A stretch of 54,998 nucleotides of DNA, filler included, from Catajapyx aquilonaris (taxonomy: Eukaryota): the NCBI GenBank assembly GCA_000934665.2. It is 2 parts of 2 records of this genome, joined end to end, with 100 filler letters (N's around TTAATTAATTAA, not from the genome) between each part and the next. Parts side by side here need not be neighbours in the genome. Positions count along the whole stretch, not along the records: positions 1 to 27,449 come from JYFJ02005056.1; 1 more part is not named here. One strand, given 5' to 3'. This document shows, piece after piece, positions 1 through 27,449 of this stretch. The notes under the pieces are model-generated. The model was not told the DNA's origin. It saw only the letters and a program-made list of their open reading frames with translations, and ran no database searches. Position 1 is the first letter of the stretch, and each line of letters starts with the position of its first letter. The position numbers were made by a program, and so were the translations under genes.

Positions 1-184
1 ACCCTATTTATGTGCAATTAATTTATATTTCGTCATTTCCATATTCTCAACTGGGAAATATCAGGGTGAGCGAATTATTCTGGGTTTGGGCAAGTATATA
101 GATTATGCTTCAAAAGATAGTGTACATCAGAACTGATTGTGGACATTTAAATATGTGAACAGAGGCTGTGAAGTGTAGGGTTCA

Positions 185-225
185 AAAACCTGGGGGGAGG
201 GGCGTGAAACTTTCTGTCCACCCTA
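185..225 (+). mobile_element. Remnant right terminal inverted repeat of a Tc1-like element (same family as 11270-11814)
   Basis: aaaacctggggg...gaaactttctgtccaccct matches aaaacctgcgggg..gaaactttccgtccaccctgta at about 11776-11814. Confidence 0.5.
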
Positions 226-278
226 TTATTATGGTGCATCGTGGAGGGTGGCGTTCGTGAGTCAAATCTCAGACAGCG

Positions 279-2063
279 ATGTCCGTTTCAACAGGTGGTA
301 CTGCTAGGCTTCCTGCAGCCTCTTTTGAGGATCTCAGTGCCAGAACAAAGCGACGGAGAACTGCTGACCTCCGATCCGCTGCAGGAGCACCTGAACTTGT
401 GCATGCTGCAGCAGCTAGTCTTCATGCAGGTGGACAGCGTCAGAGCTCGAAGCTTATGCTTGAAGTCTTCGCCGGGAGTCCAACACGACCGCAGAAGGTA
501 AAGAGAGCGTTGGAAGCGAGCAAATCAGGCGCCAACGTGGTTCGCCCTTATTCACCGGAGATGGCTTTAAACCTTATTGTGCAAGCGAAGCTCACAAAGG
601 CTCAATATTTGATTTTGCGAAGCAGTGCCCAGGGACAGAATGCAGAGGATATGTACCCTAACTATCATAAAATCGGAGATGCTAAAAGAGAGTGCTATCC
701 CCCTGAATCAGCTGTAACTGTCACAGAATCTGCAGCTGAAATTGAGCTGCAGGCACTCATGGACCTCACGGTAGCTCGTCTGGTGCAGGTGCTGGAGTCC
801 GTCCTAGAGACCATATCTCCCGACCAACTGCAAGAAGTAATTCTCGTCTCAAAATGGGGGTCAGATGGAAGCTCTGGCTTCTCTATGCACAAGCAAGTGG
901 CCAAAAATGCTGAGTTTTGCGAGAGCACTGTGTATGCCACATCAGTTGTTCCCCTTCAATTATTCACCACGGATGTGAGTGGCAAGAAAATCATAGTGTG
1001 GCAGAACCCTAGGACATCCTCTCCGCGGTATTGTCGTCCGCTGAAGTTGCAATTTGCAAAAGAAACAACGGCTCTTATTGTCAATGAAGCGAAGTTAGTG
1101 GAAGATGACATTTCCAAATTAGCCTCTTCTACAGCACTGTTGAGTTCAGGGCAACAAATCAAGGTCAGTCATGAAATGCACATGACTATGGTGGATGGCA
1201 AACTGTGCAATGCCCTGACCGGCACAAAGTCTACACAGTCGTGCTACATCTGTGGAGCTAAACCGTCCCAAATGAACAAACTGGATGACTTGGAGAAGCT
1301 ACCCGTAGATGAGAGTGCCTTGAAGTACAGATTATCGGTGCTCCATTCTTGGATCCGTACATTTGAATATTTGTTGCACATTGCATACAAGATCAAGATC
1401 AAGAGTTTGAGATGCAGAACGCAAAAAGAGAAAGAAATTGTAGAGAGCTCCAAAAAGGACATCAAGGAAAGATTCAAGAAGGAGCTAGGTTTAATTGTGG
1501 ATATGCCCAAACAAGGATTTGGATCCTCAAATGATGGCAACACGGCCAGAGCATTTTTTAGGAATTCAGAAGGGTCTTCTTCCATCACCAATGTTGACAT
1601 AGATCTCATTCAAAGATTCTGCAGCATTTTGGAGGCACTCTCTAGTGCATATGAGATCAACATAGAGGAATACAAGATTTATGCAAGGGAAACATTCCAA
1701 AAGTGCATCGACCTCTACCCTTGGTATGATATGCCTCCAAGTGTGCACCGAATACTTGTACATGGGGCATCTATTATTCAGGCCGCACCCCTCCCTATCG
1801 GGATGTTTTCAGAAGAAGCCCAGGAATCAAGGCACAAAGACCTAAAACATTTCCGGGTCTTCAACACCCGAAAGGCGTCTAGGGTGGACTGTAATACAGA
1901 CCTTCTCCATATGTGCCTGATTACATCCGACCCTCTAATTACATCCCTGAGGAAGCTACCAGCCAAAAAAATGGGCAGTTTATCAAAGGAAACTCTGCGT
2001 CTTCTGAAGGAACCACAACTTTTGACTCCACTGGAAGTGGAAGAGTCAAGTGATGAAGAATAG
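279..2063 (+). CDS. Transib transposase (RAG1-core homologue), uninterrupted 594-aa ORF
   Basis: Motifs SFEDLSARTKRRR, YPNY, KWGSDGSSG (D1), NPRTSSPRYCRP, MVDGK (D2), CYICGA, LHSWIR, NDGNTAR, HRILVHG, SEEAQES (E), TSDP; no stops or frameshifts; no introns; no TIRs found. Confidence 0.93.
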   Translation: MSVSTGGTARLPAASFEDLSARTKRRRTADLRSAAGAPELVHAAAASLHAGGQRQSSKLMLEVFAGSPTRPQKVKRALEASKSGANVVRPYSPEMALNLIVQAKLTKAQYLILRSSAQGQNAEDMYPNYHKIGDAKRECYPPESAVTVTESAAEIELQALMDLTVARLVQVLESVLETISPDQLQEVILVSKWGSDGSSGFSMHKQVAKNAEFCESTVYATSVVPLQLFTTDVSGKKIIVWQNPRTSSPRYCRPLKLQFAKETTALIVNEAKLVEDDISKLASSTALLSSGQQIKVSHEMHMTMVDGKLCNALTGTKSTQSCYICGAKPSQMNKLDDLEKLPVDESALKYRLSVLHSWIRTFEYLLHIAYKIKIKSLRCRTQKEKEIVESSKKDIKERFKKELGLIVDMPKQGFGSSNDGNTARAFFRNSEGSSSITNVDIDLIQRFCSILEALSSAYEINIEEYKIYARETFQKCIDLYPWYDMPPSVHRILVHGASIIQAAPLPIGMFSEEAQESRHKDLKHFRVFNTRKASRVDCNTDLLHMCLITSDPLITSLRKLPAKKMGSLSKETLRLLKEPQLLTPLEVEESSDEE

Positions 2064-2150
2064 GTAAATGCTACTATTCTTCACTTCCAATGGAGTCAAA
2101 AGTTGTTCCTTCAAAAATACGCAGAAGAATAGGTAGCATTTACCTATTCT
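1994..2150. repeat. Inverted duplication of the Transib CDS 3' end (nested hairpins)
   Basis: 1994-2039 is the near reverse complement of 2082-2125; 2057-2074 pairs with 2133-2150; 2054-2063 pairs with 2074-2083. Confidence 0.85.
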
Positions 2151-2705
2151 GATTTGTTTGTACATTTATAGATTTGATTTTCTGATTTGATTGTAATTAA
2201 ATTTGGATGTAATTATAAGGTCGGATGTATAATATAATTAGACACATGGAGATTTGATTTGAGATTCAGATGTGATTGCATATTGGTGTTTTTGATTCGA
2301 TATTATGATTTGATTGTACATTTATGTTTTTGATTTAAGATTACCATTTAATTTTACGATTTGATTGTGCATTGATGGATTCGATTTAATTTTTTATTTG
2401 ATTGTAATTAAATTCGGATATAATTTTATGGTCAGATGTGTATAATTAGGCACAGATGGAGATTTGATTTAAGATTCCCATTTTATTGTACAGTACATTG
2501 ATGTATTTGATTTAATATTATGATTTGATTGTAATTAAATTCGGATGTAATTAGAAGGTCGGATGTAATTAGGCACATATGGCGATTTAAATTGATACTC
2601 TGATTGTTTGTACATTGATGGATTTTATATACTCTGATTGGTGGTACATTGATGGATTTTATACTCTAATTGTTTTTACATTGATGGATTTTACTTGATA
2701 TGATG
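2151..2705. repeat. AT-rich degenerate tandem repeat array downstream of Transib
   Basis: Recurrent units gatttgattgtaattaaattcggatgtaatt and ttgtacattgatggattt; AATAAA at about 2726. Confidence 0.8.
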
Positions 2706-4065: not shown

Positions 4066-4715
4066 CCAATAATCGCGAAAATGGGTTCTTTTCATGGAAC
4101 CAGGTCTTCTTGTACCCTTCACAACTCCTGACTAAGGCACTTTTCACGGACATCGATGCTACCAAACTGTCGGGCTGGTTGCGAACTATCAGGATATATG
4201 TTCAACTCAATTTCCGACATTTCATGACATAGGCTGTTTTTGTGGGGAACGCCTCAATTTTAGGAGTTCTGGAAAGTGGACTACAGTTTAAAAGGTAGAC
4301 TAGTGGTTGGAGACAGTGACATGGGCAATATATTATCTGTATAAAGTAGACCATATGTTAGAGTCAGTTATATGGCCATATCAATTATTAGTGAATGCGA
4401 AAATCCAGGTTTGAAATTATATTGCTACTTTCATTCTGTCATGGCCCTTTCACAGGGCTTTTAAAAGTAATTTAATTTGCAAGCAAAAATTAGTGACAGT
4501 TAGTCGGATTTTTACATATCTCAAAACTTGTGAAAAAATTTTATCGCTGGAAAATGTTTATTATATCTTCATTTAGGAATTAAATTCGCCTCGCATTTCT
4601 CAGACGGTATTTATTTACCCTGCTCTAGTGTGACTTGGCAATTTCAGCGTAGGCCTAAATACGGAGATGTTGAAATTTTACCATGTGGTTAAGGGGTCAA
4701 ACCGGTTATTAGACA

Positions 4716-5832
4716 ATGTTGACCGTAGTAAATGAGTACTGTGAGATACGTGACAAGAATGTTTTAAGTATAGACCTTTCAAAGAACAAGTACCTATTCT
4801 TAAGAGAGACAGCAAGGAACCACAGTCACGATCTATATCCATCTTACAAGCAGATTTTTGAAGCAAAACAAACCTGCTACCCCGACCAGAGCGCAATAAC
4901 CTGTTCGGAACTGAAGTGCGAAATCGAGGTCCAGGCCCTTCTGGACCATACCTGCAAGAGGATCTTTGAGGTAGTCCCTCCACCCAGCGATGATTCCAGC
5001 AGCTTCACACTATTTTGTAAATGGGGATTTGATGGCAGTTCTGGACACTCCCTTTACAAGCAGAAATGGGGAACAGAAAATGTTTCGGATTCTAGTCTCC
5101 TTACAACTTCAGTAGTTCCCCTTCAGTTAAGAAATGAGCATACTGGAGAAACCCAAGGCCATCCTCGACGCGGTTTTGTAGGCCAGTACGCCTGCAGTGG
5201 CTACAGGAGACGTCAGAGGTGGCCAAAGCAGAAGAGGAGTATATTGGTGGCCAAGTCATTAATTTGCGTCCATACCAACAGGGTCAACTGTAACATACCA
5301 TCTACTGTTAACAATGGTTGATGGAAAGGTGAGTAATTGTTGATTTGCTGTTCATTTATCAGCCTCGATTATTATTTAGGATTTTCTTAAAATTTACAGA
5401 TTTGTAATGCACTGTCTAAGGTGTCTTCAATGAGGTGCTACATTTGCGGGGCAACATCAGCGCAGTTAAATAATTTAGCTGAAGTAGCAGACAAACCAGA
5501 GGACATGTCTGCGTTCAGATTTGGCCCGTCCACTCTCCATGCGCACATCAGATTTCTATAATGTCTCTTGCATGTTGCTTACCGACTGGATTTCCAGAAA
5601 TGGAAGGTACGGTACATGGGGATGGCTTAGAAAGACTTGGTGTATGTCAAAAAATCTAGTTTGTTGTCACATTATTTACACTATATTTCAGCAAAGTGAA
5701 AAAGAAGGCACCAAGAAGATGGCAAAAGAAAGAAAAGAACAAATCCAGGCAGATTTTCGGACACAATTGGGAATTCTTGTCGATTATCCTAAGCAAGGTT
5801 TGGGAAACAGCAACGATGGGAATACTGCTAGG
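4716..5832 (+). pseudogene. Second, divergent Transib transposase; intron-containing, disrupted and 3'-truncated
   Basis: YPSY, KWGFDGSSG, NPRPSSTRFCRP, MVDGK | intron 5329-5399 (GT..AG) | ICNAL..CYICGA, STLHAHIR, in-frame TAA at 5559, intron 5607-5691, GNSNDGNTAR; frameshifts near 5190 and 5285. Confidence 0.88.
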
Positions 5833-6075
5833 GTATCAATATTGGATCCGCCATTTTGAATGTTGTAGTTTTAGAAATAGCTATGAAATCATCTGCCTGA
5901 AAAAACCCCAAATCCCAATTTTAGGTTCAATAGGAGCAATTTTACTCTCGGATGTCGGCCATATTGGATCCGCCATTTTGAATTTTGTATTTTTAGCGAC
6001 AGATTTGAATTCCTCGGCCATGAAAACCCCCGAGTCATTAATTTTGTCAAGAAAATACCACTTCTTAAACTTTTG
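5833..6075 (+). repeat. Interspersed non-autonomous repeat (GGATCCGCCATTTTGAA family), related to 29000-29330
   Basis: Two atattggatccgccattttgaa motifs; aatcccaattt...cgccatattggatccgccat...agatttgaattc...tgaaaaccc is collinear with 29150-29290. Confidence 0.65.
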
Positions 6076-6109
6076 ACCGGCTTTTTTCGATTTGGTCCTA
6101 CTGTGCGGC

Positions 6110-6508
6110 GGAGTGGCCAGCATGGATACAAAGGTTTGGACGGTATCGCACCGTGTCACGTTCGTGCGCCAGGCCTCAAGATGAGCAAGTGAGTGCACTA
6201 GTTTACGCCATGGGACTGAAGGGGGAGGAGATCTTGGCATCGTTCCACCTAATAGGCGACGAAGCTTACACGGTGGTCAAGGCCAAACTTGAAGCTCATT
6301 TTGTGGGACGACGGAATCGGACATACGAGAGGGCACGATTCAACAGTCGGTCGCAGGGTCCAGGTGAGAGCGTAGATGATTTTGTAACCCTCACTATCCC
6401 AGAAGCAACGGCATGGCTGAAGCAGGCGTGAAGGTGGTGAAGGCAGCCATGATGAAATCTGTAGACCCATACCTAGCTCTCCTCGCATACCGCTCCACTC
6501 CTCTAGAG
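6110..6508 (+). mobile_element. Gypsy (Mag/K02A2.6-like) remnant: gag piece joined directly to integrase core piece
   Basis: gag-like QVSALVYAMG..YERARFNSRSQGPGESVDDFVT, then at about 6390 HYPRSNGMAEAGVK..DPYLALLAYRSTPL (integrase E motif). Confidence 0.85.
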
Positions 6509-6540
6509 CAATGGTTCCCAAACTATGGGCCGCGAGGTTT
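6509..6540 (+). mobile_element. Left end of a hAT-type MITE
   Basis: ctctagag|caatggttcccaaact resembles the CAGTGGTTCCCAAAC hAT TIR at a typical NNCTAGNN target; partner TIR not found. Confidence 0.45.
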
Positions 6541-7855
6541 ACATTTTTTTGTAAACTATAAAATAATGATCTTGCGAAATGAGGAGCAAGTGCACAGTAC
6601 GTCAAAAAAAACAACTGTCAAAATCATATCTATCGGTAACTGTCTTTCGTATTTTAGAAATTATTGTAAAAAAATAATGAGCTGATTGGCGGTGGTTGTG
6701 AAACTCCGAGCCTGATGAAAATGACTCATTTAGCTGTATGCTTGGATATGGCTGCAAATTATTATTTCGACCTAAAGTACATTTACTTTTTGTTGTGGCT
6801 GTTGAGATCCTGTAATAGCCTATTGTAGTGCCTCACGATGAGGCGTAAGAGACACCACAAAATATCCCAGGAAAACACACCGGGGGAAAGGGTAAAAACC
6901 ACCACTGTGGACTCTATTCAGGACCAAAGGTACAACACATCCGTCCAGGTCCACGAGGACGATAGAACAAGAACTCTCCTTACAATTCAATCAACAACGA
7001 CAGTGTCCAGGCAACCAGGGCCACAGACAACGACCTGGTTGCCAGGACACTACACTATTCTATTGTTACAGTACAAGTCGTTAATATAAAAATGTGTTTT
7101 TTTAAACCAACAGGTGCAGTCACTCAGAACAGAATGAGCAGTTCTGTGTGATGAGAACGTAGGACAAGAATTGGGTTTCAAAGGCTACTGAATATGGATC
7201 TCTGGCTTAAAACTGGGACGCTGAAGCGTAAATCGGACAGCATTTGTGACGACGTTAATACTGGAAAGGTGCAATATGTGGGTAACAATGAGAGCAACGT
7301 TGTGTGCAATCCACATCGTGGTGAAGACTGCAATAGTTCATCAGCTCCTGTCCTCCTGTCCGAAAGTCCCTGACCCTGTCTTTGGTTTATTTTCCTCTCT
7401 CTGTGGGGTCAGTCTCTCTCTTTTCCCCATTCATCCCTTCGTGGGCCTTTTCCAGAATCCTCCCCCACCATAAAACTATCCCAAGTCCCAGCTGTGCAAA
7501 AAGACGCTACCCCACGGAGTCAACCCGTCCTTTATTGCTGGCATTCTCTTTCTCCTATTAAACCAGCACAACCTTCCAATGTCTTGGGTCCTCAAATGGC
7601 TTGAGGTACAGTATATATTGCTAAATGTTCTGCTCAAGAAGTTGCGTAAGCGAATAATATGAGTAGGCCTATGCCACTATTCGTGTTTGATAGCATGGGA
7701 ACATTCATTTCAAGAGAGGTCAATATTTGCGTATAATTACTACAATGCTGAATTGAGTACAAATCTTTACACTGTTTTCTTACACCATTAAGTGCACTCT
7801 ATTACGAACAAAGCGTGTGTAAAGGCAGCAAGACACCCACCCATCGCCCCGACAC

Positions 7856-7959: not shown

Positions 7960-8700
7960 TAGCCTTCCTGGAAATGCACAACAATGGACCAATGTTTGAT
8001 TTCTTGTGTGCCAGNNNNNNNNGGGGGGGGGGGGGGGTTTATCGTTTATTTTTTCCCCACTCCCTCGCGTGATTATTGGTCCATCTCTATACCTCACAAA
8101 GCGACATCGTACACCCTGTAGCTCTATGTTCAAAATAACTTGAAAATCGAAATCAGCGACCCTGAAAACATTGGGAGACATGTATTTTGCGTAGTTGGAG
8201 CTATCATTTTCGTTCGTGTTTTTTTCTGATATTGACCACTATGTGTGGCGCTGGGTGGGACACACCGACGAACCTTCAGCTTTTTTATCACAGATGCAAA
8301 TACAACTACTGTAAATGGTCCAAGAAAAATTTATTTTGGACATCATCTGTAACAATTATTTTCATGGGGAACCACAGTATGGGAATGGCGGCCTTACAAA
8401 ATCCATGCCAAATTTGATGCTTGTATCACCATTTGAACGATTTTTCTCAATTTTGCAATTATGCACAAGAGCTGTCCAGGACCTCCCTCGATGAAAAGCC
8501 CTCTCACAGGGCTGCCTCTCATGTCTGTCGCTCTCTTAAATTTGCGACACCGGCCACCTGCTTTGCTTCCTGCTTCTGGCTCATTGGGTGGGTGGCGGAA
8601 TAGCTGACTTTTTCGCGCCTTTTTCTCTTTCTTTATTCTTTTCTGGAGAGAGAGGGAGGGAGAGAGAGGGAGGAGGGGGGAGAGAGAGAGAGAGAGAGAG

Positions 8701-10697
8701 ATGGTCATTGACCCTATTCCCTCATCCAATGGTGTTTCCTCTCTTAATGAGATCGGGTCCTCAAAAAAGATCTGTTCTTCCGATGAAGGTAGCATCCAAT
8801 TTCGAGAGTTTAATGTCGAGGCTAACGCAGACAGCGTTCACATTCATCGCGATTCCGGACCAACCAACAGTGACTCGGAGCTGCGTGACGCTCTGGCAGC
8901 CTGGACAGTAAACAACAATGTGACGCATAAAGTTTGCTCCAGCCTTTTGAATGTTCTACGAATGCACGGCCTTGACAACTTGCCAAAAGATTCCAGGACG
9001 TTAAGAGGCACTCCTCGTAGTGTGAATAAAAGAAAAGTAGTGAAAATAGAACCCGGATCATACCGTCACTTTGGTCTAAAGGAGGGGCTAATGGATTGTC
9101 TGCGGTTGGTTACTAGAATTCCGGAAACGGTAGGACTATACATAGGAATTGATGGCATCCCTTTCGTTAAGAGCAACAATAGCAATTTCTGGCCAATCTT
9201 GGGTCTTCTGGATCTTCCAACGGCATCCCCGTTTGTCACTGGAATATGGCATGGGGAAAGTCACAAACCCGATTCTGTCAATGAATATCTGCGGCGGTTT
9301 GTGGACGAGATGAAGGACGTAATGGAACGTGGCGTGACTGCTCTGAATAAAACAGGTGCAATGGCAGTCCATGTTGATTTGAAGGCTTTTATATGCGACG
9401 CTCCGGCCAGAGCTTTCGTAACTGGAATTAAAGGACATAGAGGATACTCATGCTGTGGAAAATGTACGCTACCAGGGGTATACCTTCGTGAGAACAATCA
9501 TGGCATGGCATATCCATACAAAGATGCGGCGCCAAGAACGAAGGACAGCTTCCGCCGAAAAGAAGACCCAGACCACCATGTGGGGGCGTCAATCGTTGAA
9601 GAACTCCGGATTGACATGGCTAAATGTTTTCCCTTCGAGTACATGCATCTGGTATGCCTGGGCATAACTAAAAATCTGATCTTGTTATGGATGACAGGGA
9701 GAGTGACCAAAGGAAAAAAACTGCATGGAAACAGGACAGCCAAAACGTTTCCGCCTGCAAAGTTCTAAAGTTGATAGTATTTCTGCGAAATTGAAGTTCC
9801 TGCGGAAATATATTCCAGGTGACTTTTCCAGGAAGCCAAGATCACTTAGGGAAATTGCAATGTGGAAAGCCACGGAACTTCGCCAATTCCTGCTATATAC
9901 AGGCCCATTAGTTCTCAAATCTGACCTTCCGGCGGAATATTACAGCCACTTCCTCCTGCTGCACTGTGCAATAACCATCTTGATAACCCCCAACTTGTGT
10001 AACAGTGCCAATGATTACGCTAAGGGGCTTCTGAGGCATTTTGTTGCCAATTTTGAGGCCTTGTATGGGATCGAGAACATGTCATACAATGTTCATGGGC
10101 TTCTACATCTCGCCGACGATGTGACAGAATTAGGACACTTTGTCTGCAAGTGATTCTCAAAAGGAAATGCACTAAACTTGTCTATCAAAAACTTACTACA
10201 CAAAGGAAGCAGACCGCTGGAGCAATAGGCTCGTAGAGAAGAGGATCCTCGCCACCAAATTAAACCAGCCACAAATGGTGGTTACAGAGCCGCAAGATGC
10301 AATAACACTGTCGCGTCCACACGAAGCAGGGCCATTAGTTCCAGCACTTGGCAACCCGCAGTTTTCTCATGCAAATTTTGTGACATTTGCCTTGAAACTT
10401 AAGCCATCAGATAACTGCTGCCAACTTCGGGACGGAAGTGTCGTTATCGTGAAAATTTTTGCCATAAGTGAAGGAGTAAAGCATATCATTGGACACAAAG
10501 TTTCACAGCTGGATTCTTTGTACTCGTCGCCCATTACATCTGCACTTCTGGGCATTTACAAAACTGGGACATGTTCTCCGCTGAAGTCTTGGCCAGCTGG
10601 ATTAGTGGAGAGAAAATTAGTAAAACTGCCCATACATCCTACGTCGACCTCCTTTGCGGTCCTGCCAAGAAGAAGCGGATTTGGAAGAGACATGTAA
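8701..10697 (+). pseudogene. EnSpm/CACTA-like (CMC) DDE transposase, disrupted
   Basis: LPKDSRTL, IGIDGIPF..FWPILG, FICDAPARA, CGKC, YMHLVCLG, WKATELRQFLLY, YNVHGLLHL, DNCCQL; frameshift near 9720 and stops near 10151 and 10226. Confidence 0.85.
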
Positions 10698-10776
10698 GTC
10701 ATAAGCAGATCGCACTAATTCTGATGAATAATATAAAAACTTTCGTGGCCCTCATTCCAGCATCACCAGAGCCAAG

Positions 10777-11265
10777 ATGTGGACCCCAAGAGAATTTGCT
10801 GTGGCCATCCTGGGCTTTGTGGTGGGCTGGATAGCAAAACGGGCACTGACGCTGAACACCGTCCAAAAGGAGACGAGGGAGGTGGGCGTCCAGGTAGACC
10901 CGCACGAGCTGCTGCCGGACGATCCGGAGGTCGAGTTGGAGGAACCTCAGATGCCTCGGCCGGTGGCAATTGTGCTTCCAATCATGGCAAATGAACTGGA
11001 AGGAGCGGTCGGCCATGATGAGGATGAGGACCCCTGGGACGACGACACCAGCAACGTGTCCTTCGGAGAGGAGTCCTGGCCGGAGCCCCTATTCCTCCAA
11101 GACGAGTTTTGGGAGTTACACAACTACCACCTAACCAGGGAAGACGGAGGGGGAGAGCGTCATGTGCAGCAACACATGGACGGGGTTTTCAGAGGCCTGG
11201 GCGAACTGATACTCTTCGAACAGTATTGTGTCATGACAGGGTGTCCAGGGCAGCGCTACCTCTGA
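10777..11265 (+). CDS. Unknown 162-aa protein: N-terminal TM helix, LC8-like VGVQVD motif, acidic linker, C-terminal HxxxH..CxxxxC domain
   Basis: Intact intronless ORF; C-terminal 34 aa share 16 identities with the ORF at 18043-18144. Confidence 0.6.
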   Translation: MWTPREFAVAILGFVVGWIAKRALTLNTVQKETREVGVQVDPHELLPDDPEVELEEPQMPRPVAIVLPIMANELEGAVGHDEDEDPWDDDTSNVSFGEESWPEPLFLQDEFWELHNYHLTREDGGGERHVQQHMDGVFRGLGELILFEQYCVMTGCPGQRYL

Positions 11266-11269
11266 CCCA

Positions 11270-15919: not shown

Positions 15920-16610
15920 ATGGCAGTAGTAGTGTGGCAGACAAAAGGACCAACTATGAAGAAGACTGGGTCTGATAACTTGACAGCAGGATTCCGAAAA
16001 GCCGGAATATATCCGTTAAACCCAGGTGAGGTGAAATCCCTCCTTCCAAATGCTGCTGCTGTTGGAGATGACGTGGCTAAATCGGTTGGGGTTACATTTT
16101 TGGAGCACCTGCAGAAGTACCGGAGCGAAATTACCAAGATCAAGTCAAGGAAACGCAAGCGCTTAGAAGTCTCACCAGGTCGGAGTATCAGCAGAGATGA
16201 TATACTGGTACCTGTTGCAGGACCTAGTTCACTTCCACAGCCAAAACAAGGCAGGAAGAAGAAGCGGGAAAAGAATACTTAGATTTCTTCAGAAGACGAC
16301 AGCACAGATAATGAGTCGCAGCATGAAAAAATCCCGTATGCCAGTGACACAGAGTCAGAAAAGATGAAGCCGGCATCGGTATACCCGTTGACAATCAGAG
16401 AAGCAACGACGTTGCCGAAGACGATCTGGAGTCAGATGGCGATATTGGTAGGGTACACTTGCAGGTGAATTTTCGAAACAGTGCTTTCTCTGTATCAGTA
16501 GGAAACTTCATACAATTTTCTTCTTTCAGTTAACGGCAGAAGATGATGGGGCCTATGTCAGTGTGATGAGAAGCGGAAGGAATTGGAAATGGCCGAAGGA
16601 AAATGTTGAA
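15920..16610 (+). mobile_element. pogo/Tigger-like transposase C-terminal fragment
   Basis: NLTAGFRKAGIYPLNP motif, basic and acidic tail, NWKWPKE motif near 16580. Confidence 0.7.
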
Positions 16611-16933: not shown

Positions 16934-17732
16934 GGAGCATTTACACGAGCGATCTTTGGCCAGGAAGTTTCCTGGCCAAAGGTCGCCAAGACCGTTCACA
17001 CGCTAGTGGCCAGGTTCGGCCAGGAAGGGAAGGTCGCCACCCGAGTCAGGAAAAGCTGGCTGGGCCGGCCATGCTCCGGAAGATGGCCAGCCACATGCGC
17101 AGTTGGGGCCCTCCCCAAACCCCAACTCCGTCTACCCTCCCTTCCACAGTTCCACTCGAGCCGGGGAAAAATGGCGGCGGCCGCAGGTTCGAGGGTAGCC
17201 ATGAACTCCTGGAGTAGGGACGAGACCCTGGCCCTCCTGGACATCTGGGGGCAGCCCCAGTGTCAGGAGGCGCTGAAAAACGCCGCCCGAAATAAGGTGG
17301 TGTTTGGGCGCATCGCAGAGGACCTAAAGGCAACGTGCGGTAGCGGCCGAACTGCGGTGCAGTGCCGCGAGAAGGTCCGAAAGCTTGTAAGAAAATACTA
17401 CGTCAAAAAGGCGAGGTCCACGTCCGCGTCGGGGAGGGTGGAATGGGAACATTTCGATTTCATTCACGGGGTGTTGGGTGGGAGACCATCTGAGAGGCCT
17501 GCATTCCTGTTGGAGTCGACGCCAGCTGCAGCGCTAGCCCAAGCAGCACAAATCCTGGCTGGACAGCCTGTAACCCAAGGTAGGTGCCTGTTTTACCCGT
17601 GAACCCAGGGGAAAACCAAGCAACTAAATTATTCCGGGTATTGTAACATTTACCTCATTACAGAAGCACCCTGCTCTGACGATGAGAATGTCAGCCAGCT
17701 GTGGAGTGAGGACCCGCTGGTGGTACAGAGAG
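16934..17732 (+). mobile_element. PIF/Harbinger 5' end with Myb/SANT-like (trihelix) DNA-binding gene, ATG 17171
   Basis: TAA|GGAGCATTTACAC terminus; WSRDETLALLDIW..RNKVVFGRIA..RTAVQCREKVRKL..WEHFDFIHGVLG; intron 17580-17663; no nuclease ORF present. Confidence 0.75.
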
Positions 17733-17889
17733 GTACGGTCATCACACAATTCACTCTCTTTGCTAGTTGCACAAGTGATATGTTTTAACCCTGGATCCAT
17801 GACATAATGCCATGTATGCTCCAAGCATATTCAGTGGCAAGGCATGGTCTGAAGGCTTGTGCAAGGGCTTACAAAGACAGACCAGAGCA

Positions 17890-18193
17890 TGGCAGTGTTC
17901 AAAGTGATCCTCCAGTCCAAAATTGGAACGACGCGACGACTCCTCGGAAGAGGAGGCCTGGCCTGACCCAGTGGATATGGAGCAGTCTTTTTTTTTTTTT
18001 TTTGGAACTGTATGTTGCAAGGTACAACCCTCGCTGGTTGGAGCACGTAAGGAAACATCTGGACAGGACATTCACCAGTTTGGAGGAGTACTGTGCATTT
18101 AAGACCTTCTGTAACATGACCGATTGTCCGGGCAACCAGTATCTGTCACCCCTGATGGTGGGGCCGGGAAACGGGCGTGTTGCGGAGTATTAG
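17890..18193 (+). pseudogene. Second copy of the unknown HxxxH..CxxxxC family, frameshifted
   Basis: SVQSDP, then EEEAWPDP in another frame (cf. EESWPEP), T16 run at 17988-18003, then HVRKHLD..FCNMTDCPGNQYL. Confidence 0.6.
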
Positions 18194-18329: not shown

Positions 18330-18862
18330 TTGAGGCAAGCAAGTAATGGTTTCCTTAGAGGAACGCTTCGATCTACTTAAGGCCCACAATTAAACATGGA
18401 GTTTTCTGTACGAATTGCAGAACCTTCCCGACAAGGACACTTTAAGAAGACACTGCATGCATCTGCATAGTGCTTTGACTGATGGCGGCAATAATATATT
18501 GTGACATTAATGGGGCCGAACTGTACAACGAGTTGTGCCATTTTCCTGCAGAACTGCTGACTCAAGAGGCTTAACCGATGGCAGTGTTAAACTTCATGCA
18601 CGCGAAAGGTCTTTGCGATGTCTTTTCAAATTTGTGGGTAGCGCTGCGCATTTCGATGACAATCCCTGTGACTGTGGCAAGTGGGGAGAGAACTTTTTCG
18701 AAGCTGAAGCTGATCAAAACTTTTTTGCGTTCCCAGCTGAGTGACAAGAAACTGACTTCTCTCGCCATTCTCTCTACAGAAAATGATGTAGCGAAGTCAC
18801 TAGATTTTAGTGATATGATATCCGACTTCGCCAATGTGAAAGCCAGAAGAAAACCTTTCTGA
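18330..18862 (+). mobile_element. hAT (ZMYM1-like) transposase C-terminal dimerisation domain fragment
   Basis: TIPVTVASGERTFSKLKLIKTFLRSQLSDKKLTSLAILSTE..FANVKARR. Confidence 0.9.
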
Positions 18863-19267
18863 GCTGCATTGTCACTCTGAGCCATATTACCTCTCATATT
18901 GCGGCAGGGTGGTATAAAATTTTTGGCCAAATTTTTTGGAATGCTTCTGGTATACTATAAAATAATGTTACAATGAAAATGGGCGAGTGTACATGCATTT
19001 AAAAAGTGTAGAGTGTATGACCAATCCATCATCAGCCTGCTTTGAGAGGGGAACCCCCTACTCTAACATACTGTTTAAATAGAGATTATTGCCAAACACT
19101 TCGATTGAAAACAATATACTGGTATGGTACAGGTATACACTATTTGGAAAATGTGCCTTTTCGATAGCCTTTACGTGAATGCCGATTTTCAGGCAAATGT
19201 CAAGTTCAGAAAGGATAATGTAACATGTGAAAACCTCGCCTTATACCGGCATGCCCGTATAGCCATA

Positions 19268-20277
19268 TACCTCCAAAAAATGCGTTTTGTTGCCTCTGCG
19301 GTTTTATTGCCAAAAAGTATATGACCTTTGTACATGGATGTAGCACTTGTGAAAAGATTGTGAAGAGTGACCATCAAAGTGACCCAGGCACAATTGTCAT
19401 AGCACATAGGCAGTTCAGCCATTGCTCCCTCACCTATCCCAAAGCAGAGTTGTCCACATTCTTGCTACAGTGTGAAAAGATTTATGTGCAGTCATTCTCC
19501 ATTTTCGGCCATGAACATGATGTGAAAAAATATTTGGCTCTGATTAAACAATCAACATACATACGTACTTGTAGTAAGCATGACTTTGACAGATTGGTAG
19601 ATTTCTACATACGAGTGAGAATATACTTTTCTTTGCATGACTCGAATAATAAGCTAACCTCGAATCAGATAAGCTGCCTCTGCCTGACTGCCGCTCTCAA
19701 TGTTACGCCAAGGCTGTAGTTATGTCCGGTCATTTATCTGGGGTGCAACAAAGAATTTTGCATCGGAATCCCAAAGCTTTGTTTATGAATAATTGCTACA
19801 ACCACAGCCTAAATTGGGTCGGAATGCTTGCTGCTGGAAGTGAAATTGTGGCTGTCACCTTCTTTGGAACTGTGGACGCATTATATGTATTCTTCTCTCA
19901 GTCAACAATTCGGTGGCATCTATTAGCTGGTGCTGGTGTGTCTGTCAAAAGAGAGTCAGAAACTCGTTGGAGTGCCTGAGAAGCTGCTGTTACATCCTTG
20001 GAGAAGATGGTGAGATTGTGGAAAGTCAGATGTCCACGGGTAACACAGGGTACCAAGTCATCATTGCAACCTCATTATTGTGAGTAGACCTGCCACAAAA
20101 TTTGCACTGGAACGGAATCCAAAGGACTTTGGACCCTGTCCTTATTGTCTTGGATTCTACCTGAAATCTGATATCCGGCGACATGGAAACACCTGTTCTC
20201 AGAGAAGACACAAGGAGGGCGATGAAAGTGAAACAAATGTGAAAAAGCCAGTTCCTCTTTGAAAGATACAAGGCAAA
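19268..20277 (+). repeat. About 1-kb chimeric cassette, copy 1: P/THAP9 C-terminus + hAT core piece + PCPYCLGF-containing piece
   Basis: LCGFIAKK..CSTC..LTYPK..FYIRVRIYF; MSGHLSGVQQRI..KRESETRWSA; GPCPYCLGFYLKSDIRRH; near-identical to 25327-26338. Confidence 0.85.
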
Positions 20278-20329: not shown

Positions 20330-21560
20330 AGAAACTGGCTAAGGATCACAGCACAACGAATTGAATGGTTGGCTATTTCACCCCAGTATGGAGTGTATCA
20401 AAGATCAACAGAGTGATCACTTCCATACAATCATGTAACTAAAATGTTGCCCCCAGACCCTCTTCATGACCTATTCGAGGGAACTGTTCCAACAGTGACG
20501 AAACTAGTTGTAGAGGAGGCCACCCAAAAGAAATACTTCCGTGCGAGTTTGCATTCAATTTCCATGGACAATTTTAGGGAGGCTGTGGTCGACAATCTCA
20601 GACATTCTCTTTCCGAGGCACAAAGACAAACTTTGGAAGGTGTACTGAACATGCCTGATCCTTTGGAGAAGTTAAAAACGCTCTCCAAACAAAGCGTTGA
20701 ACAGGTCATTGAGAGACACTTTCATTTTGTAGTTCCTCCAAAAACCATTTATCTGCCTGAAACTACCAATATGTCTCCATTATTCAAGTTCTGAAATGTT
20801 ACTTAGATATGAAAGATATTTTACATGAAGTTGTACGTGGTCATCAGAGTAAGAAAGGACTCTACAGGGATTATTGTGATGGGGAACTGTACAATAAGAA
20901 CAGTTTCTTTCAAGAAAACCCATCTGTTCTGCAAATTGTGCTATACTTTGATGAATTTCAGTGTGCAAATCCTTTGCGTAAGTAGGTCAATTGATTACAA
21001 GCTCGCTGCTGTCTATTTCACTTTGGGCAACATTGATCCAAAATATCGTTCCAAGCTAAAGATGATAAACCTTCTAGTCCTCTGTCAAAGTATATATCTG
21101 AAGAAAGTCGGCATGAGTGTTATTTTAGAGCCATTGCTTGAAGAACTGAAATTGTTGGAGACAATTGGTATTGATGTTTGTGTTCAAGGACAAAATAAAA
21201 ACTTCAAAGGAACAGTTACTGCAGTCTTGTCAGACAACTTAGGCGCCCACATGATTGGTGGGTTTGTAGAGAGTTTTAATTCATTGCGGGTTTGCCGGTT
21301 CTGCATGACGACGCGAGAAGAGGCACAGCAGTATTGCAATATGGATAGATTTACATTACGAACTCACCATACATATGATTACCATGCACGTCTAGCACAG
21401 GAAGACAGCACTTTGGGAAAAGTGTATGGAATCAAAAGTGCCTCAGTCTTTTCTTTGCTAAAACATAATCATATTATATAATGTTGCCTCCTGACCCATT
21501 GCACGATTTATTGGAAGGGGTGGTACCCACTGTCATGACACATATTATCAAAGACGCGCA
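20330..21560 (+). pseudogene. Second EnSpm/CMC-like transposase family, two fragments
   Basis: LQIVLYFDEF..ANPL, YKLAAVYFTLGNIDPKYRSKL, VLSDNLGAHMIGGFVESF..CRFC; LPPDPLHDL(F/L)EG occurs twice (20444, 21481). Confidence 0.75.
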
Positions 21561-22954
21561 GCAGAAAAAACTCTTTAACTGCCTTAGTCTGCCCTGGGCT
21601 TGGTTGGGTGTCCAGCTCAGATAGCAAAAAGGGGCAAAACTATATATTTTTTTTGCTTCTTCTTCCATCGTTATACTAACAAGAGAGTAACAAGTATTAC
21701 ACATTTGTGACCGTCAGTGGACAGTCGGCTGCAGTGTAAGGTGGGCCTGAGGTGTAGCTATAAGCACAAGAGTCCGTCTGTCTTCATGGAGATTTATTAT
21801 GTGAGTACACACTAATAACTAATAAGTAATAATTGAAGGTGGCGTCGTTTGATCTTATCATTAATAATGTTTCCCATTTCGTTCAGATGTTCTGCGTGAT
21901 TTTGGTGTCCGGCCCCTGCATGTTGGGCATTCTTTCCGGGCTCAATATGTGTGTGGACGTTTTGTTTGCTGACATACCCGCCGTACGAGCGTTCGTGCGA
22001 GGATTCTTGGGGATCCACGGCTTGGGAAGTTGTAAGTTATACAGTTGATGTTTTTGCATTCCCAAAAAGTTAATAATTTACTTCTCTGCCATTTTAAGCC
22101 TGTATTCTCTTTGCGCTGATTGCCACGTGTGTTGGCATCATTTGGGTGTTTGTATCTACGTGCTGGCTTTGCTTCATGTATACAAGATGGTATATGGTTT
22201 GGTAAAAAAAAAAAAAAAACAGAAGGAAAATGTGCTGGCAAGTTTTACCGTTGTTTTCTTGTTTTTTTAAGACTACGATGGCCCTCACTCTGTCTGCTGT
22301 TCAGACATAGTGGAATACACAATTGGTTTGGCAAATTCCGACCATTTTCTATTCGGCTGTTTTGTTCTGGCTCGACCCGACGTGCATTGATGGATTTGAA
22401 TTTAGGATTCTATGGGTGACGCTTTTATACGCAACAATAACCACTTTCAGCATTTATTACATGATGACGGACTAGCACCGTTTGGACCAGGTACGTGTAT
22501 GACAAAGCTTTACGCGTATATGGGTTTATGACAAAATGGCGTTAAGTTTATCGCATTCTTTTTCCCTAGATTCCCGACCAGGACGCTGACGGCGGACCTG
22601 ATGTGAACGACGATGGAAATGACTCGGACACCAATTTTGATACCGTCAGCTCTGACGGTGACGATGACGGTGTGCCAATTTTACAACATTGGCGGTATAT
22701 TCCTGCAGTACATGAAGGCGTGGAGGTGGAAAGACTGATGTTGATTGAAAAATAGTGATCAGGTAATTTTCTATGCTGTATGATACACTGTGTTTCGGGA
22801 TAAGTTCTCTGAATTAGCATTCACCATGAACCTGTCTTCAACTTCAAGCGACTGGGAGTTCCTGGCTCCCTCTGACCCACTGAAGCTGGGGGGAGGAGAG
22901 GAAAGAAGCGACCGACATCCCCCTTCCCTGGGCCGTCCCCACCTTAGCCCCACG

Positions 22955-23321
22955 ACCGCACATCGGGCGAACGCGACGCAGGAGTTTCTTCGTGACAACA
23001 ACTTGGAAGTGATTCCTCATGCTCCCTACTCACCTGACCTGGCTCCTAGCGACTTTTGGCTGTTTCCAACGATGAAAGACACTCTTCGTGGTCGCACATT
23101 CACTAGCCGTGCCTCTATTGCATCAGCGAGTTTCCAGTGGTCAAAGCAGACTCCTAAAGAAGCGTTCGCAGCGGCCATGGAATCATGGCGTCGACGTTGC
23201 GAAAAATGTGTACGGCTGCAGGGAGATTACGTCGACAAGTGACACAAGTTTCACTGTTTTCGTGTGATTAGTTTGTGAGAAAAAAAAAATCGGAGGTGTT
23301 ATAACTTGAACGCACCTCGTA
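22955..23321 (+). mobile_element. mariner transposon 3' fragment with right TIR
   Basis: HAPYSPDLAPSDFWLFP..RCEKCVRLQGDYVDK*; ends gaacgcacctcg+TA at 23319-23321. Confidence 0.92.
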
Positions 23322-24451: not shown

Positions 24452-24679
24452 ATGCAAGTCGGGGGAGATCATACCCGGGATGAGTTAATTGCTGCATATT
24501 TTGGGAAAGGGTACACATACGCAGACATTTTAAATTTTCTGTTATTTTGCCACAACATGTCGTTGTCTATGTCTCGTCTGAAACAGATACTAAGGTTGAT
24601 GGGATTGAAAAGGAAGGGGTATGTGGAGTCTCCTCTGGAATCTATATGTGCAGCAATTATCCAAGAACTTGACTCTTGA
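24452..24679 (+). mobile_element. N-terminal HTH fragment of an integrase-core (IS3EU-like) transposase
   Basis: YFGKGYTYADILNFLLFCHNMSLSMSRLKQILRLMGLKRK pattern; family name is inferred from memory. Confidence 0.5.
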
Positions 24680-24710
24680 CACTGATTGTTTGACCTCAAA
24701 ATCGTCCCCC

Positions 24711-25125
24711 ATGGCGGCCCACAATGGTGCAGCAGCGCCCGGGAACGATGGTGAGTTATGGAAAGCACAAAACGGCTATCAAACCGCGATAGATCACTAT
24801 CAGAGAGTGACACGGAGGATCCCCTCCAACAGATCGCCCCCAAAAAGGTATGCCACGCCACAGAGGGGTAAGAACGGTGGTAACAAGCCCCGTAACAAGG
24901 AGGACAGCTACGGGCGAACAAACCCGAACCTCCTGGCACGATCGATTGGCCAATACAACGTGAAGCCCATTCAGTTGTGGATCCTGAAGTCGGGCGATCT
25001 CCGGGTCAAAGTGGCCACGGAGGAAGAAGCGGAGAAACTCTCCGCAGTAAGGGAGATTAGCGGCATCCCTTGCAGCGCGACCGCTAGCTCCCAGACGATG
25101 CGCTTCCGGGGCCTAGTCAAGGTTC
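24711..25125 (+). mobile_element. LINE (I-group-like) ORF1/gag N-terminal fragment, in frame with the following P/THAP9 piece
   Basis: NPNLLARSI..ILKSGDLRVKV..EAEKL..ISGIP..RGLV; sharp GC drop near 25130. Confidence 0.55.
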
Positions 25126-25326
25126 AGGGAGCGAGCACGGATGCACCTGGTGCAAACTGTGCTAGTGATGGTGATACAATTGCAGTTTTCTTAAGTACTT
25201 TTGTGGGAGAAATGTCCCGTGCCATGAAGAAAACAACACCTAGAGAAGTACAAGGCAGAAGTGAAAATGCGCATGGGCTGCATCTCTCAACCCAGCATGT
25301 GCCGTTGAAAGGAGGCATCCCTGATT

Positions 25327-26338
25327 TACCTGCAGAAAATGCGTTTTGTTACCTCTGCGGTTTTATTGCCAAAAAGTATGTGACCTTTGTACATGGATGT
25401 CGCACTTGTGAAAAGATTGTGAAGAGTAACCATCAAAGTGACCCAGGCACAATTGTCATAGCACATAGGCAGTTCAGCCATTGCTCCCTCACCTATCCCA
25501 AAGCAGAGTTGTCCACATTCTTGCAACAGTGTGAAAAGATTTATGTGCAAGTCATTCTCCATTTTCGGCCCTGAACATTATGTGAAAAAATATTTGGCTC
25601 TGATTAAACCATCAACATACATACGTACTTGTAGTAAGCATGACTTTGACAGATTGGTAGATTTCTACATACGAGTGAGGATATACTTTTCTTTGCATGG
25701 CTCGAATAATAAGCTTACCTAGAATCAGATAAGCTGCCTCTGCCTGACTGCCGCTCTCAATGTTACGACAAGTTATGTCCGGTCATTTATCTGGGGTGCA
25801 ACAAAGAATTTTACATCGGAATCCCAAAGCTTTGTTTATGAATAATTGTGACAACCACCGCCTAAATTGGGTCGGAATGCATGCTGCTGGAGGTGAAATT
25901 GTGGCTGTCACCTTCTTTGGAACTGTGGACGCAATATATGTATTCTTCTCTCAATCAACAATATATTCGGTGGCATCTATTAGCTGGTGCTGGTGTGTCT
26001 GTCAAAAGAGAGTCAGAAACTCGTTGGAGTGCCTGAGAAGCTGCTGCTACAGTTCTCCTTGGAGAAGATGGTGAGATTGTGGAAAGTCAAATGTCCATGG
26101 GTAACACAGGGTACCAAGTCATCATTGCAACCTCATTATTGTGAGGAGACCTGCCACAAAATTTGCACTGGAACGGAACCCAAAGGACTTTGGACCCTGT
26201 CCTTATTGTCTTGGATTCTACCTGAAACCTGATATCCGGCGACATGGAAACACCTGTTCTCAGAGAAGACACAAGGAGGGCGATGAAAGTGAAACAAATG
26301 TGAAAAACCCCGTTCCTCTTTGAAAGATACACGGCAAA
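25327..26338 (+). repeat. About 1-kb chimeric cassette, copy 2 (P/THAP9 sequence extends upstream to about 25130)
   Basis: Collinear, near-identical to 19268-20277 with scattered substitutions and small indels. Confidence 0.85.
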
Positions 26339-26884
26339 TTCAGTCCTTGTTGTATAGTAGTAATATTAGGAAAGGTGGAATACATATTATATAATACACC
26401 GTATACTTGGCCTGATCGTATGAAGACTTAATCGATTTTTATTTAATTTTTCCAGCACCAAGGACCTGTATTTGTCTACATCTGGCTGGGAGTAGAAATG
26501 ACATACCTTGGGACCCATTTAGTAGTGGCTGGAGCGGAGGATGTCGTCGCCCTGATAATTAATGTCGCAAAGATCCTTACAGCCATGCACGCGGTGGTGG
26601 TGTTGGCGATTTACTGTACTAAGGTAGGCTGGGCTACTCGTAAATGTCTATTGGCTCGTTTTTTATTTTATTGCGGTAATGAAGAAAAGAGGGCCAGCCG
26701 GAAGGACTCTCGTGCAAGAAACAGAGGTCTAAGCAAGTCTCACAAGCGCAGCGGTGTCGAATTGTGCGGGGAAAAAGTAAAATACACTTAAACCGATTCG
26801 ATCAATTAAGCACCTGCGGGATGGAATAATTTCGTATGCTTCGGGCCAGGGAACAGCACAGCATCTTCTCAAGTGGGGGCTTGC

Positions 26885-27020
26885 TTCCGGACCAATGCCA
26901 CTGAAGTTATCACGTGGCCGCAACTGAAACTCCTGGAGGACGCATTCACTGCGAACCACTACCCAACGGAGGATGACCTGGAGCGCCTTCGCTTCACAGT
27001 CGGTCTCAAAAAAGAACGAA
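26885..27020 (+). pseudogene. Homeodomain fragment (helices 1-2, recognition helix absent)
   Basis: VITWPQLKLLEDAFTANHYPTEDDLERLRFTVGLKKER; no WFQN after it. Confidence 0.6.
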
Positions 27021-27449
27021 TGGACTGTGGTGTGGCATCTGGCGTGATATGGCGATTGAACAAACTCTAATAAAGTCAATGTAGACAAGCGGTGGCCTCA
27101 CTCATGGCAGTGGAGTAACTGCAGGCGTTGTGACAAGATGGACACAAGGGATGACAGCACTGCATAATGTGTGCCAAGAGATTGAGCACTTTACGGGAGT
27201 GGAACTCGCAACGTCAGAACAACACGTTGCAAAAGCGAGACAACACTGACGCACATAAGTTGCCGAATTGGTTCCACAAATCCTCCTTTCCCAGAGACCA
27301 CTGACCTAATGTCACTAACAGTACAGGTGTTGTCGCAAATGAGAAGATCAACTCGCGGGCTCAGAAAGACAAGGTTCTATCTGACATTTTCGTAAATATT
27401 GACTTATTGGTATACAGGGGTTCTATGTGACATAATCTTTCAGTGATAA

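What the first reader, a model, noticed from the sequence alone, without database searches (positions are those of the whole stretch)
1..27449. About 20 unrelated transposon fragments all on one strand: candidate uni-strand piRNA cluster built mainly from DNA transposons
Seen: Transib x2, Gypsy, EnSpm x2, Tc1, LINE x2, solo LTR, pogo, Harbinger, hAT x2, P/THAP9, mariner, an IS3EU-like piece, two unknown ORFs and a homeobox piece all read on +. I recognised no minus-strand TE coding piece and no intact host gene in 27 kb. With 18 independent insertions the chance of one orientation is 2x0.5^18, about 1e-5. Known: uni-strand piRNA clusters such as Drosophila flamenco hold TE fragments antisense to one long precursor. 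Inference: this locus is transcribed on the - strand as an antisense library. Unlike LTR-dominated flamenco, it samples many DNA-transposon superfamilies once or twice each. A possibly reversed LTR-like stretch at about 6825-7050 may be an exception.
Basis: partly seen in the sequence, partly recalled or inferred. Interest (0 to 1): 0.88.

Follow-up and report, generated by a model that had tools for sequence, protein, structure and literature searches.

The report
One-strand transposon graveyard, piRNA role untested
In this 27-kb stretch of an arthropod genome every broken transposon gene that could be recognised points the same way, which is the layout of a one-strand piRNA source locus, but no RNA data could be reached to show that it works as one.

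Summary
Searches run alike on both strands (Pfam on all ORFs, read-through frames, solved structures) found nine plus-strand transposon-type pieces. These are Transib x2, Transposase_21/EnSpm-like x2 (weak), Tc1-like x2, mariner, hAT and a Myb/SANT domain. No minus-strand piece was found (two-sided p about 0.004). A database-free test agrees: the longest ORFs favour plus in 23 of 27 one-kb blocks, against 14 of 28 in the other half of the window. The claimed Gypsy, LINE x2, solo LTR, pogo, P/THAP9, second hAT and IS3EU pieces could not be verified. The window is two 27,449-base pieces joined by an artificial 100-base spacer. The KDM1A gene in the right piece therefore cannot be taken as the neighbour or host of this array. 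No RNA run was listed, so minus-strand transcription and piRNAs remain untested. Poly(A)-signal counts and G+T composition give no support for minus-strand transcription. My best reading is a polarised transposon trap feeding the piRNA pathway (about 0.37). An ordinary long transcription unit is nearly as likely. The scan has flagged the same pattern in at least six other windows of this genome.

The parts
1..27449 (.). Left piece of the composite window: a gene-poor transposon graveyard with plus-strand polarity. Both ends are cut by the piece edges.
   Evidence: Spacer at 27450-27549.
261..2060 (+). Near-intact Transib transposase ORF (600 aa).
   Evidence: Pfam RAG1, E 2.1e-7. HzTransib 6pqn, E 2.7e-124, over nt 549-2030.
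4713..5856 (+). Second, broken Transib transposase piece (about 41% identical to the first).
   Evidence: BLASTP E 2e-29; tblastx; 6pqn E 2.4e-4 at 5665-5835.
8608..9765 (+). Transposase_21 (tnp2, CACTA/EnSpm-type) piece. Weak match, below Pfam's cut-off.
   Evidence: Transposase_21 E 2.7e-4, 20.6 bits against a cut-off of 28.6; Plavaka E 0.0085.
10732..11582 (+). Tc1-type transposase piece. The DDE_3 match spans 11172-11570 when stops are read through.
   Evidence: DDE_3 E 6e-10 and 2.6e-9. SB100X 5cr4 E 2.7e-4.
16934..17599 (+). ORF with a Myb/SANT-like DNA-binding domain 4 (17204-17467). It is transposon-associated or host-derived; Harbinger origin is not shown.
   Evidence: Myb_DNA-bind_4 E 9.8e-16.
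17789..18190 (+). Second piece related to the stretch just upstream of the Tc1 DDE_3 domain.
   Evidence: BLASTP E 4e-11 against 10732-11262; tblastx 54% over 54 aa.
18575..18859 (+). C-terminal dimerisation domain of a hAT transposase.
   Evidence: Dimer_Tnp_hAT E 2.6e-9.
19265..20277 (+). First copy of a 1-kb direct repeat (95% identical to 25324-26338) carrying an unidentified Cys-rich ORF.
   Evidence: blastn. No Pfam hit. No usable Atlas hit.
25324..26338 (+). Second copy of the same repeat, in direct orientation.
20417..21478 (+). Second Transposase_21-like piece (lead level).
   Evidence: Atlas score 0.96, with 16 of 30 hits in Transposase_21 clusters. Pfam Transposase_21 E 0.049.
22784..23239 (+). 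C-terminal catalytic piece of a mariner transposase (22955-23233).
   Evidence: Mos1 4mda E 6.2e-11; SETMAR 1.8e-8.
26810..27067 (+). Partial homeodomain (helices 1-2 only, 26909-27019). Not a transposon.
   Evidence: Homeodomain E 7.9e-5, 22.8 bits against a cut-off of 22.9.
6069..6682 (+). Not verified by any search.
   Evidence: 0 Pfam families at E<=1; no solved-structure hit. The integrase-like and gag-like look is from recall only.
11867..12675 (+). Not verified.
   Evidence: 0 Pfam families at E<=1.
15893..16279 (+). Not verified. The 165-aa minus ORF over it (15784-16278) has no homologue either.
24609..25571 (+). Longest unidentified plus ORF (321 aa). It is overlapped by the longest minus ORF of normal composition (24472-25005, 178 aa).
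   Evidence: No homologue for the plus ORF. The minus ORF has only a spurious repeat-cytochrome hit.
27450..27549 (.). Artificial spacer: 44 N, TTAATTAATTAA, 44 N. It sits exactly between two 27,449-base pieces.

Best explanation
The left piece is a strand-polarised transposon trap. Many unrelated, mostly cut-and-paste transposons landed here and decayed, and only copies in one orientation were kept. The most likely reason is that the locus is transcribed through on the minus strand as one long RNA that carries the transposon remnants in antisense. That RNA would then be cut into piRNAs that can pair with transposon mRNAs, as at flamenco-type one-strand clusters.

Shown: the polarity, the transposon content and the lack of host genes.

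Inferred: minus-strand transcription, processing into piRNAs, and selection for antisense copies.
For: - Tally: 9 of 9 database- or BLASTP-supported transposon-type pieces lie on plus, and 0 on minus, in searches run alike on both strands.
- ORF openness: it favours plus in 23 of 27 kb-blocks, against 14 of 28 in the right piece. Total stop trinucleotides are equal on the two strands, 1158 against 1138. The asymmetry is therefore one of reading frames, not of base composition.
- Related pairs: 3 of 3 related protein-level pairs within the piece are direct (Transib 1/2, Tc1-like 1/2 and the 1-kb repeat). The only inverted match of 80 bp or more is a 104-bp palindrome.
- Type of element: the supported pieces are DNA transposons. 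In human and mouse transcribed regions these are the least orientation-biased class (PMC1391917, passages), so ordinary intron selection is a poorer fit.
- Precedents: flam-like clusters are defined by same-strand transposon enrichment (PMC10643416, passages). Antisense transposon sequence in an exported transcript is enough to trigger piRNAs in the fly ovarian soma (PMC13226689, abstract and passages).
- Other windows: at least six in the same genome were flagged with the same layout (not tested here).
Against: - No RNA evidence of any kind is available.
- Poly(A) signals: hexamers are not depleted on the proposed sense (minus) strand. AATAAA occurs 28 times on minus and 18 on plus; with ATTAAA the totals are 39 and 31.
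- Composition: G+T is 51.0% on plus (17 of 27 blocks above 50%). GC skew is positive on plus even outside long ORFs, in 10 of the 11 kb-blocks that hold enough non-ORF sequence. Introns 1-3 of KDM1A in the right piece carry that signature on their sense strand (G+T 52.7%). Read in the same way, it would point to plus-strand, not minus-strand, transcription. However, it may simply be the transposons' own composition.
- Content: no Gypsy, LTR or retrovirus domain was found, so the content differs from every described flam-like cluster.
- Rhodnius: one-strand clusters there are mostly not polarised (PMC11614815, passages).
- Limits: only 9 pieces are supported, two of them weakly. Negative searches have low power, since the longest unidentified plus ORF also found no homologue. 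The promoter end lies outside the piece.
Confidence: 0.37

Rival explanations
1. Ordinary long transcription unit. The piece lies in a giant intron or a long non-coding transcript read on the minus strand. Transposons inserted in the sense orientation were purged because their poly(A) and splice signals break the host RNA. The polarity is then a by-product and no piRNAs are made.
For: - Antisense bias of transposons inside transcribed regions is well documented (PMC1391917 and PMC3088655, passages; PMC3517506 and PMC1794541, listing abstracts only).
- This genome has giant introns. The right piece holds KDM1A exons 1-4 on the minus strand, ending in a good AG|GTCAGT donor. The C-terminal ~440 aa are absent from the window.
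- If the two pieces were really adjacent, the array would sit in that intron, antisense to KDM1A.
Against: - Adjacency is not established. The two pieces are of exactly equal length and are joined by an N44-TTAATTAATTAA-N44 spacer. The LSD1 note is filed under another piece than this finding.
- No host exon was found in 1-27449.
- In mammals the bias is weakest for DNA transposons (PMC1391917), yet all supported pieces here are DNA transposons and the bias is complete.
- Poly(A)-signal counts and G+T composition do not mark the minus strand as the sense strand.
Confidence: 0.3
2. Weaker bias inflated by chance and by limited detection. Minus-strand remnants exist but are too decayed, or belong to families that Pfam and the structure bank do not cover. 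The window was picked from hundreds because it looked extreme.
For:
- Searches for unidentified ORFs failed on both strands.
- Four kb-blocks favour minus.
Against: - Every test run alike on both strands gave 0 on minus.
- The database-free ORF test gives 23 of 27 (p 3e-4), with a balanced control.
- The two longest minus ORFs of normal composition have no real homologue. Their translations look like the antisense shadows of plus ORFs.
Confidence: 0.15
3. Another polarising process: plus-strand transcription with the transposons in sense, or a composite unit that was built once and copied.
For: - GC skew is positive on plus in 22 of 27 blocks, and also outside long ORFs.
- There are fewer poly(A) hexamers on plus.
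- One 1-kb direct duplication lies inside the piece.
Against: - The skew can be the transposons' own sense-strand composition (PMC1391917 warns that the composition method does not apply to repeats).
- No look-alike stretch was found in other scanned windows.
- Apart from one pair, the fragments are unrelated families.
Confidence: 0.1

Closest known systems
flamenco and flam-like one-strand piRNA clusters of Drosophila (PMC10643416, passages read)
   Same: A gene-poor array of transposon remnants from many insertions, strongly enriched on one strand.
   Different: - flam-like loci span hundreds of kb and are enriched in Gypsy-family retroviruses, and their strand bias is driven only by Gypsy.
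- Here at least 27 kb is seen, no LTR or retroviral domain was found, and the supported pieces are DNA transposons.
- piRNA output and a promoter are shown for flam and are untested here.
One-strand piRNA clusters of the hemimetabolous bug Rhodnius prolixus (PMC11614815, passages read)
   Same: A non-dipteran insect; the clusters hold mariner-like DNA transposons as well as LINEs and Ty3 elements.
   Different: The transposons there lie on both strands (not polarised). The few polarised clusters are small and hold few elements.
Mosquito core clusters fed by read-through from an upstream gene (bioRxiv 10.1101/2022.08.22.504762, passages read), and antisense Tirant insertions in host 3' UTRs (PMC13226689, abstract and passages read)
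   Same: A host-gene transcript that carries antisense mobile-element sequence becomes a one-strand piRNA source. This would link the two main readings.
   Different: Those sources lie downstream of genes or in 3' UTRs, so they end up in exported RNA. No host gene could be tied to this piece.
Antisense orientation bias of repeats inside transcribed regions (ROAST footprint; PMC1391917, passages read)
   Same: Same-strand excess of repeats relative to a transcription unit.
   Different: That bias is partial and is strongest for LTR elements and L1, and weakest for DNA transposons. Here it is complete and is seen in DNA transposons. The companion footprints (G+T excess, poly(A)-signal depletion) do not agree with it here.

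Membership tests
One-strand (flamenco-type) piRNA cluster | Gene-poor locus dense in remnants of many transposon families | tested here: met
   Nine supported pieces from at least 5 superfamilies in 27 kb, and no intact host gene. The right piece has 0 transposon domains.
One-strand (flamenco-type) piRNA cluster | Transposon remnants predominantly in one orientation | tested here: met
   9 plus against 0 minus; ORF test 23 of 27 blocks.
One-strand (flamenco-type) piRNA cluster | 24-31 nt, 1U-biased, phased small RNAs from one strand, antisense to the transposons | not testable with these tools
   No RNA run was listed; read laying was not used.
One-strand (flamenco-type) piRNA cluster | One upstream Pol II promoter and a long precursor transcript | not testable with these tools
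   The upstream (right-hand) end is cut by the piece edge at 27449. Poly(A) hexamers are not depleted on minus.
One-strand (flamenco-type) piRNA cluster | Size of tens to hundreds of kb | tested here: inconclusive
   At least 27.4 kb; both ends are cut.
flam-like cluster in the strict Drosophila sense | Enrichment of Gypsy-family or env-bearing LTR elements that drive the strand bias | tested here: not met
No RVT, rve, gag or env family on either strand at E<=1.
Transposon array in a host intron with antisense bias | Lies inside an identifiable transcription unit on the opposite strand | tested here: inconclusive
   No host exon in the piece. KDM1A is on minus in the right piece, but a spacer separates the pieces.
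Transposon array in a host intron with antisense bias | Companion footprints on the transcribed sense strand: G+T excess and fewer poly(A) signals | tested here: not met
   Minus strand: G+T 49.0% and 39 hexamers. Plus strand: 51.0% and 31. KDM1A introns 1-3 do show G+T 52.7% on their sense strand.
Dual-strand piRNA cluster | Transposon remnants on both strands | tested here: not met
   0 minus-strand pieces.

The most novel reading that the evidence does not exclude
This arthropod genome keeps a set of polarised, flamenco-style one-strand piRNA traps. This locus and at least six others flagged by the scan would belong to it. Their content is mainly cut-and-paste DNA transposons rather than retroviruses. 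That would show that selection for antisense capture is not special to Gypsy control in fly follicle cells.
Probability: 0.3. Interest if true: 0.55.

Novelty: new member of a known kind. Interest (0 to 1): 0.35.

Why it matters
Polarised transposon arrays are the signature of the somatic flamenco-type branch of piRNA defence. That branch has so far been described in detail only for Gypsy retroviruses in Drosophila. In Rhodnius, the one hemimetabolous insect paper I read, one-strand clusters are not polarised. A polarised array dominated by DNA transposons in another arthropod would widen the range of that mechanism. It would also give a sequence-only way to find such loci. If the polarity comes instead from ordinary through-transcription, the locus is routine. 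It would still show an unusually strong orientation filter on DNA transposons.

Tried and rejected
- RNA evidence: the look-up of sequencing runs on 8100-18000 listed no RNA holder ('none was listed', not 'none exists').
- Whole genome: none is held, so the genome-wide background of transposon orientation could not be measured.
- Read-through Pfam on 4600-aa frames added nothing and lost the Transposase_21 hit.
- Short ORFs of 38-59 aa and relaxed E<=1 scans added only the second Transposase_21 hit.
- Homology searches:
  - The minus ORF 15784-16278 found nothing.
  - The plus ORF 24609-25571 also found nothing, so these blanks are weak evidence.
  - The representative search with the minus ORF 24472-25005 gave one hit. 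It is a bacterial four-repeat cytochrome c, which I judge spurious.
  - The Atlas gave no usable hit for 19231-19716.
- 'The array lies in KDM1A intron 4': I considered this after finding exons 1-4 on minus with no later exons in the window. I then downgraded it when the junction proved to be an artificial spacer between two equal pieces.
- Poly(A)/poly(T) runs as a polarity marker for retroelements: 3 against 1 at 10 nt or more, which is uninformative.
- Look-alike stretches in other scanned windows: none.

Full report
**What the window is.**
The 54,998-base window is not one continuous stretch. It consists of two pieces of exactly 27,449 bases each (1-27449 and 27550-54998). They are joined by a 100-base spacer of 44 N, TTAATTAATTAA and 44 N. 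The inner 12 bases put a stop in all six frames. I read this as an artificial joint, so the two pieces cannot be taken as neighbours. The finding covers the whole left piece. No whole genome is held for the window.

**Checking the observation on both strands.**
I ran four database searches.
- **Pfam on all ORFs of 60 aa or more.** There are 350 in the window, and the 182 in the left piece were repeated at E<=1. Plus-strand hits were RAG1 (261-2060), Transposase_21 (8608-9765 at E 2.7e-4; 20813-21478 at E 0.049), DDE_3 (11367-11582), Myb_DNA-bind_4 (16934-17599), Dimer_Tnp_hAT (18575-18859) and a partial Homeodomain (26810-27067). The minus strand gave only chance-level, non-transposon lines.
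- **Pfam on short ORFs.** 220 ORFs of 38-59 aa (102 plus, 118 minus) gave no transposon family on either strand.
- **Pfam on read-through frames.** All six frames of each half, with stops read as X, gave the same plus hits and nothing in 6 of 6 minus frames.
- **Solved structures.** 6 of 6 minus frames gave no hit. Of the 4 of 6 plus frames searched, 3 hit: HzTransib at E 2.7e-124 (a near-intact 600-aa Transib ORF), a second Transib piece, Sleeping Beauty, and Mos1/SETMAR.

Pairwise BLASTP confirmed the second Transib (E 2e-29) and a second Tc1-like piece (E 4e-11). The protein Atlas placed 20813-21478 with Transposase_21 clusters (score 0.96, 16 of 30 hits; a lead only).

The tally is nine supported plus-strand pieces and none on minus (two-sided p 0.004). 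Two of the nine are weak, and one (the Myb domain) may not be from a transposon.

**A test without databases.**
- In each 1-kb block I compared the mean length of the longest ORF covering each base on the two strands. Plus wins in 23 of 27 blocks of the left piece (p 3e-4) and in 14 of 28 of the right piece.
- ORFs of 150 aa or more cover 9142 bp on plus against 1713 bp on minus in the left piece. In the right piece the figures are 3009 and 2757.
- ORFs of 100 aa or more cover 14,469 bp (plus) and 8,423 bp (minus), against 2,597 ± 771 bp in locally shuffled sequence.
- Stop trinucleotides are equally common on both strands (1158 against 1138), so the asymmetry lies in the reading frames.
- The minus-strand excess over shuffles is what antisense shadows of real coding sequence give, and the minus translations look like that.

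**What was not verified.**
- Some of these carry motifs that I recall from such proteins, but that is recall, not a test.
- Negative searches have low power here. The longest unidentified plus ORF (24609-25571) found no homologue, and neither did the minus ORF 15784-16278.
- The minus ORF 24472-25005 matched only a four-repeat bacterial cytochrome, which I judge spurious.

**Internal structure.**
The pieces are mostly unrelated to each other. The only long DNA repeat is a 1-kb direct pair at 95% identity (19265-20277 and 25324-26338). All three related protein-level pairs are direct. The only inverted match of 80 bp or more is a 104-bp palindrome.

**Surroundings.**
The right piece holds two host genes.
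- The 5' half of KDM1A/LSD1 lies on the minus strand, as four exons between 34877 and 30539. It is up to 85% identical to insect proteins, and exon 4 ends in an AG|GTCAGT donor.
- A pepsin-like aspartyl protease lies on the plus strand.

The C-terminal ~440 aa of KDM1A are nowhere in the window. I first took this to mean that the array sits in that intron, antisense to KDM1A. The spacer, and the filing of that note under another piece, make this unsafe. I keep it only as a possibility.

**How it most likely works.**
A complete same-strand bias across unrelated families needs a polarising force. Two are known.
- **Selection in a one-strand piRNA source.** Copies that are antisense to the precursor are kept. 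This holds at flamenco and the flam-like loci (PMC10643416, passages). Antisense fragments in exported host transcripts are enough to trigger piRNAs (PMC13226689, abstract and passages). Mosquito clusters are fed by read-through from upstream genes (10.1101/2022.08.22.504762, passages).
- **Purging inside any long transcription unit.** Sense-oriented insertions are removed (PMC1391917, PMC3088655, passages).

In favour of the first: in mammals DNA transposons are the least orientation-biased class in transcripts (PMC1391917), yet here they carry a complete bias.

Against the first:
- There is no RNA evidence.
- There is no retroviral content.
- Rhodnius one-strand clusters are mostly not polarised (PMC11614815, passages).
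- Poly(A) hexamers are not depleted on minus (39 against 31).
- G+T (51.0% on plus) and GC skew (positive in 22 of 27 blocks, and also outside long ORFs) lean the other way. This may only reflect the transposons' own sense-strand composition.

I put the piRNA-trap reading at about 0.37, a plain transcription unit at 0.30, chance plus under-detection at 0.15, and other causes at 0.10.

**Novelty and verdict.**
At best this is a new member of a known kind. The scan has already flagged the same layout in at least six other windows of this genome, also without RNA data. Interest is modest until small-RNA or stranded RNA data, or a genome-wide orientation background, are brought to bear.

Noticed in passing
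window 27450-27549: The window is two equal 27,449-base pieces joined by N44-TTAATTAATTAA-N44, a six-frame stop spacer. Features of the two halves should not be read as neighbours.
   Followed up: partly
window 30539-34877 (minus strand): The 5' half of KDM1A/LSD1 (SWIRM domain plus the start of the amine oxidase domain) lies in four exons. Exon 4 ends in a canonical donor, and the remaining ~440 aa lie beyond the piece edge.
   Followed up: yes
window 37961-39890 (plus strand): A pepsin- or cathepsin-D-like aspartyl protease gene, seen as five exon-like ORFs that cover Pfam Asp positions 1-315.
   Followed up: no
window 35149-35766: A 652-bp near-perfect palindrome (78% identity between the arms) just upstream of KDM1A exon 1. 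It may be a foldback element in the promoter region.
   Followed up: no
window 261-2060, with 2253-2699: A Transib transposase ORF that is open for 600 aa and aligns to nearly the whole HzTransib core (418 bits), so it is a young copy. It is followed at once by short tandem repeats with periods of 32-127 bp.
   Followed up: partly
window 2886-3630: A GC-rich, low-complexity block that is open in all six frames and contains a CTG/CAG run. Its nature is unknown.
   Followed up: no
window 26909-27019 (plus strand): A partial homeodomain (helices 1-2 only) that stops where many homeobox genes have an intron. It could be a stray host exon or a pseudogene inside the array.
   Followed up: no
window 30776-34544 versus 1-27449: KDM1A introns 1-3 carry G+T 52.7% on their sense strand. 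The left piece carries a positive GC skew on plus in 22 of 27 kb-blocks, and also outside long ORFs. Whether that reflects plus-strand transcription or the transposons' own composition is unexplained.
   Followed up: partly
window 5884-6145 and 29132-29393; 42579-42909 and 45458-45780; 44060-44647 and 49719-50310: Non-coding repeat families are shared between and within the two pieces (70-78% identity). Their type is unknown.
   Followed up: no
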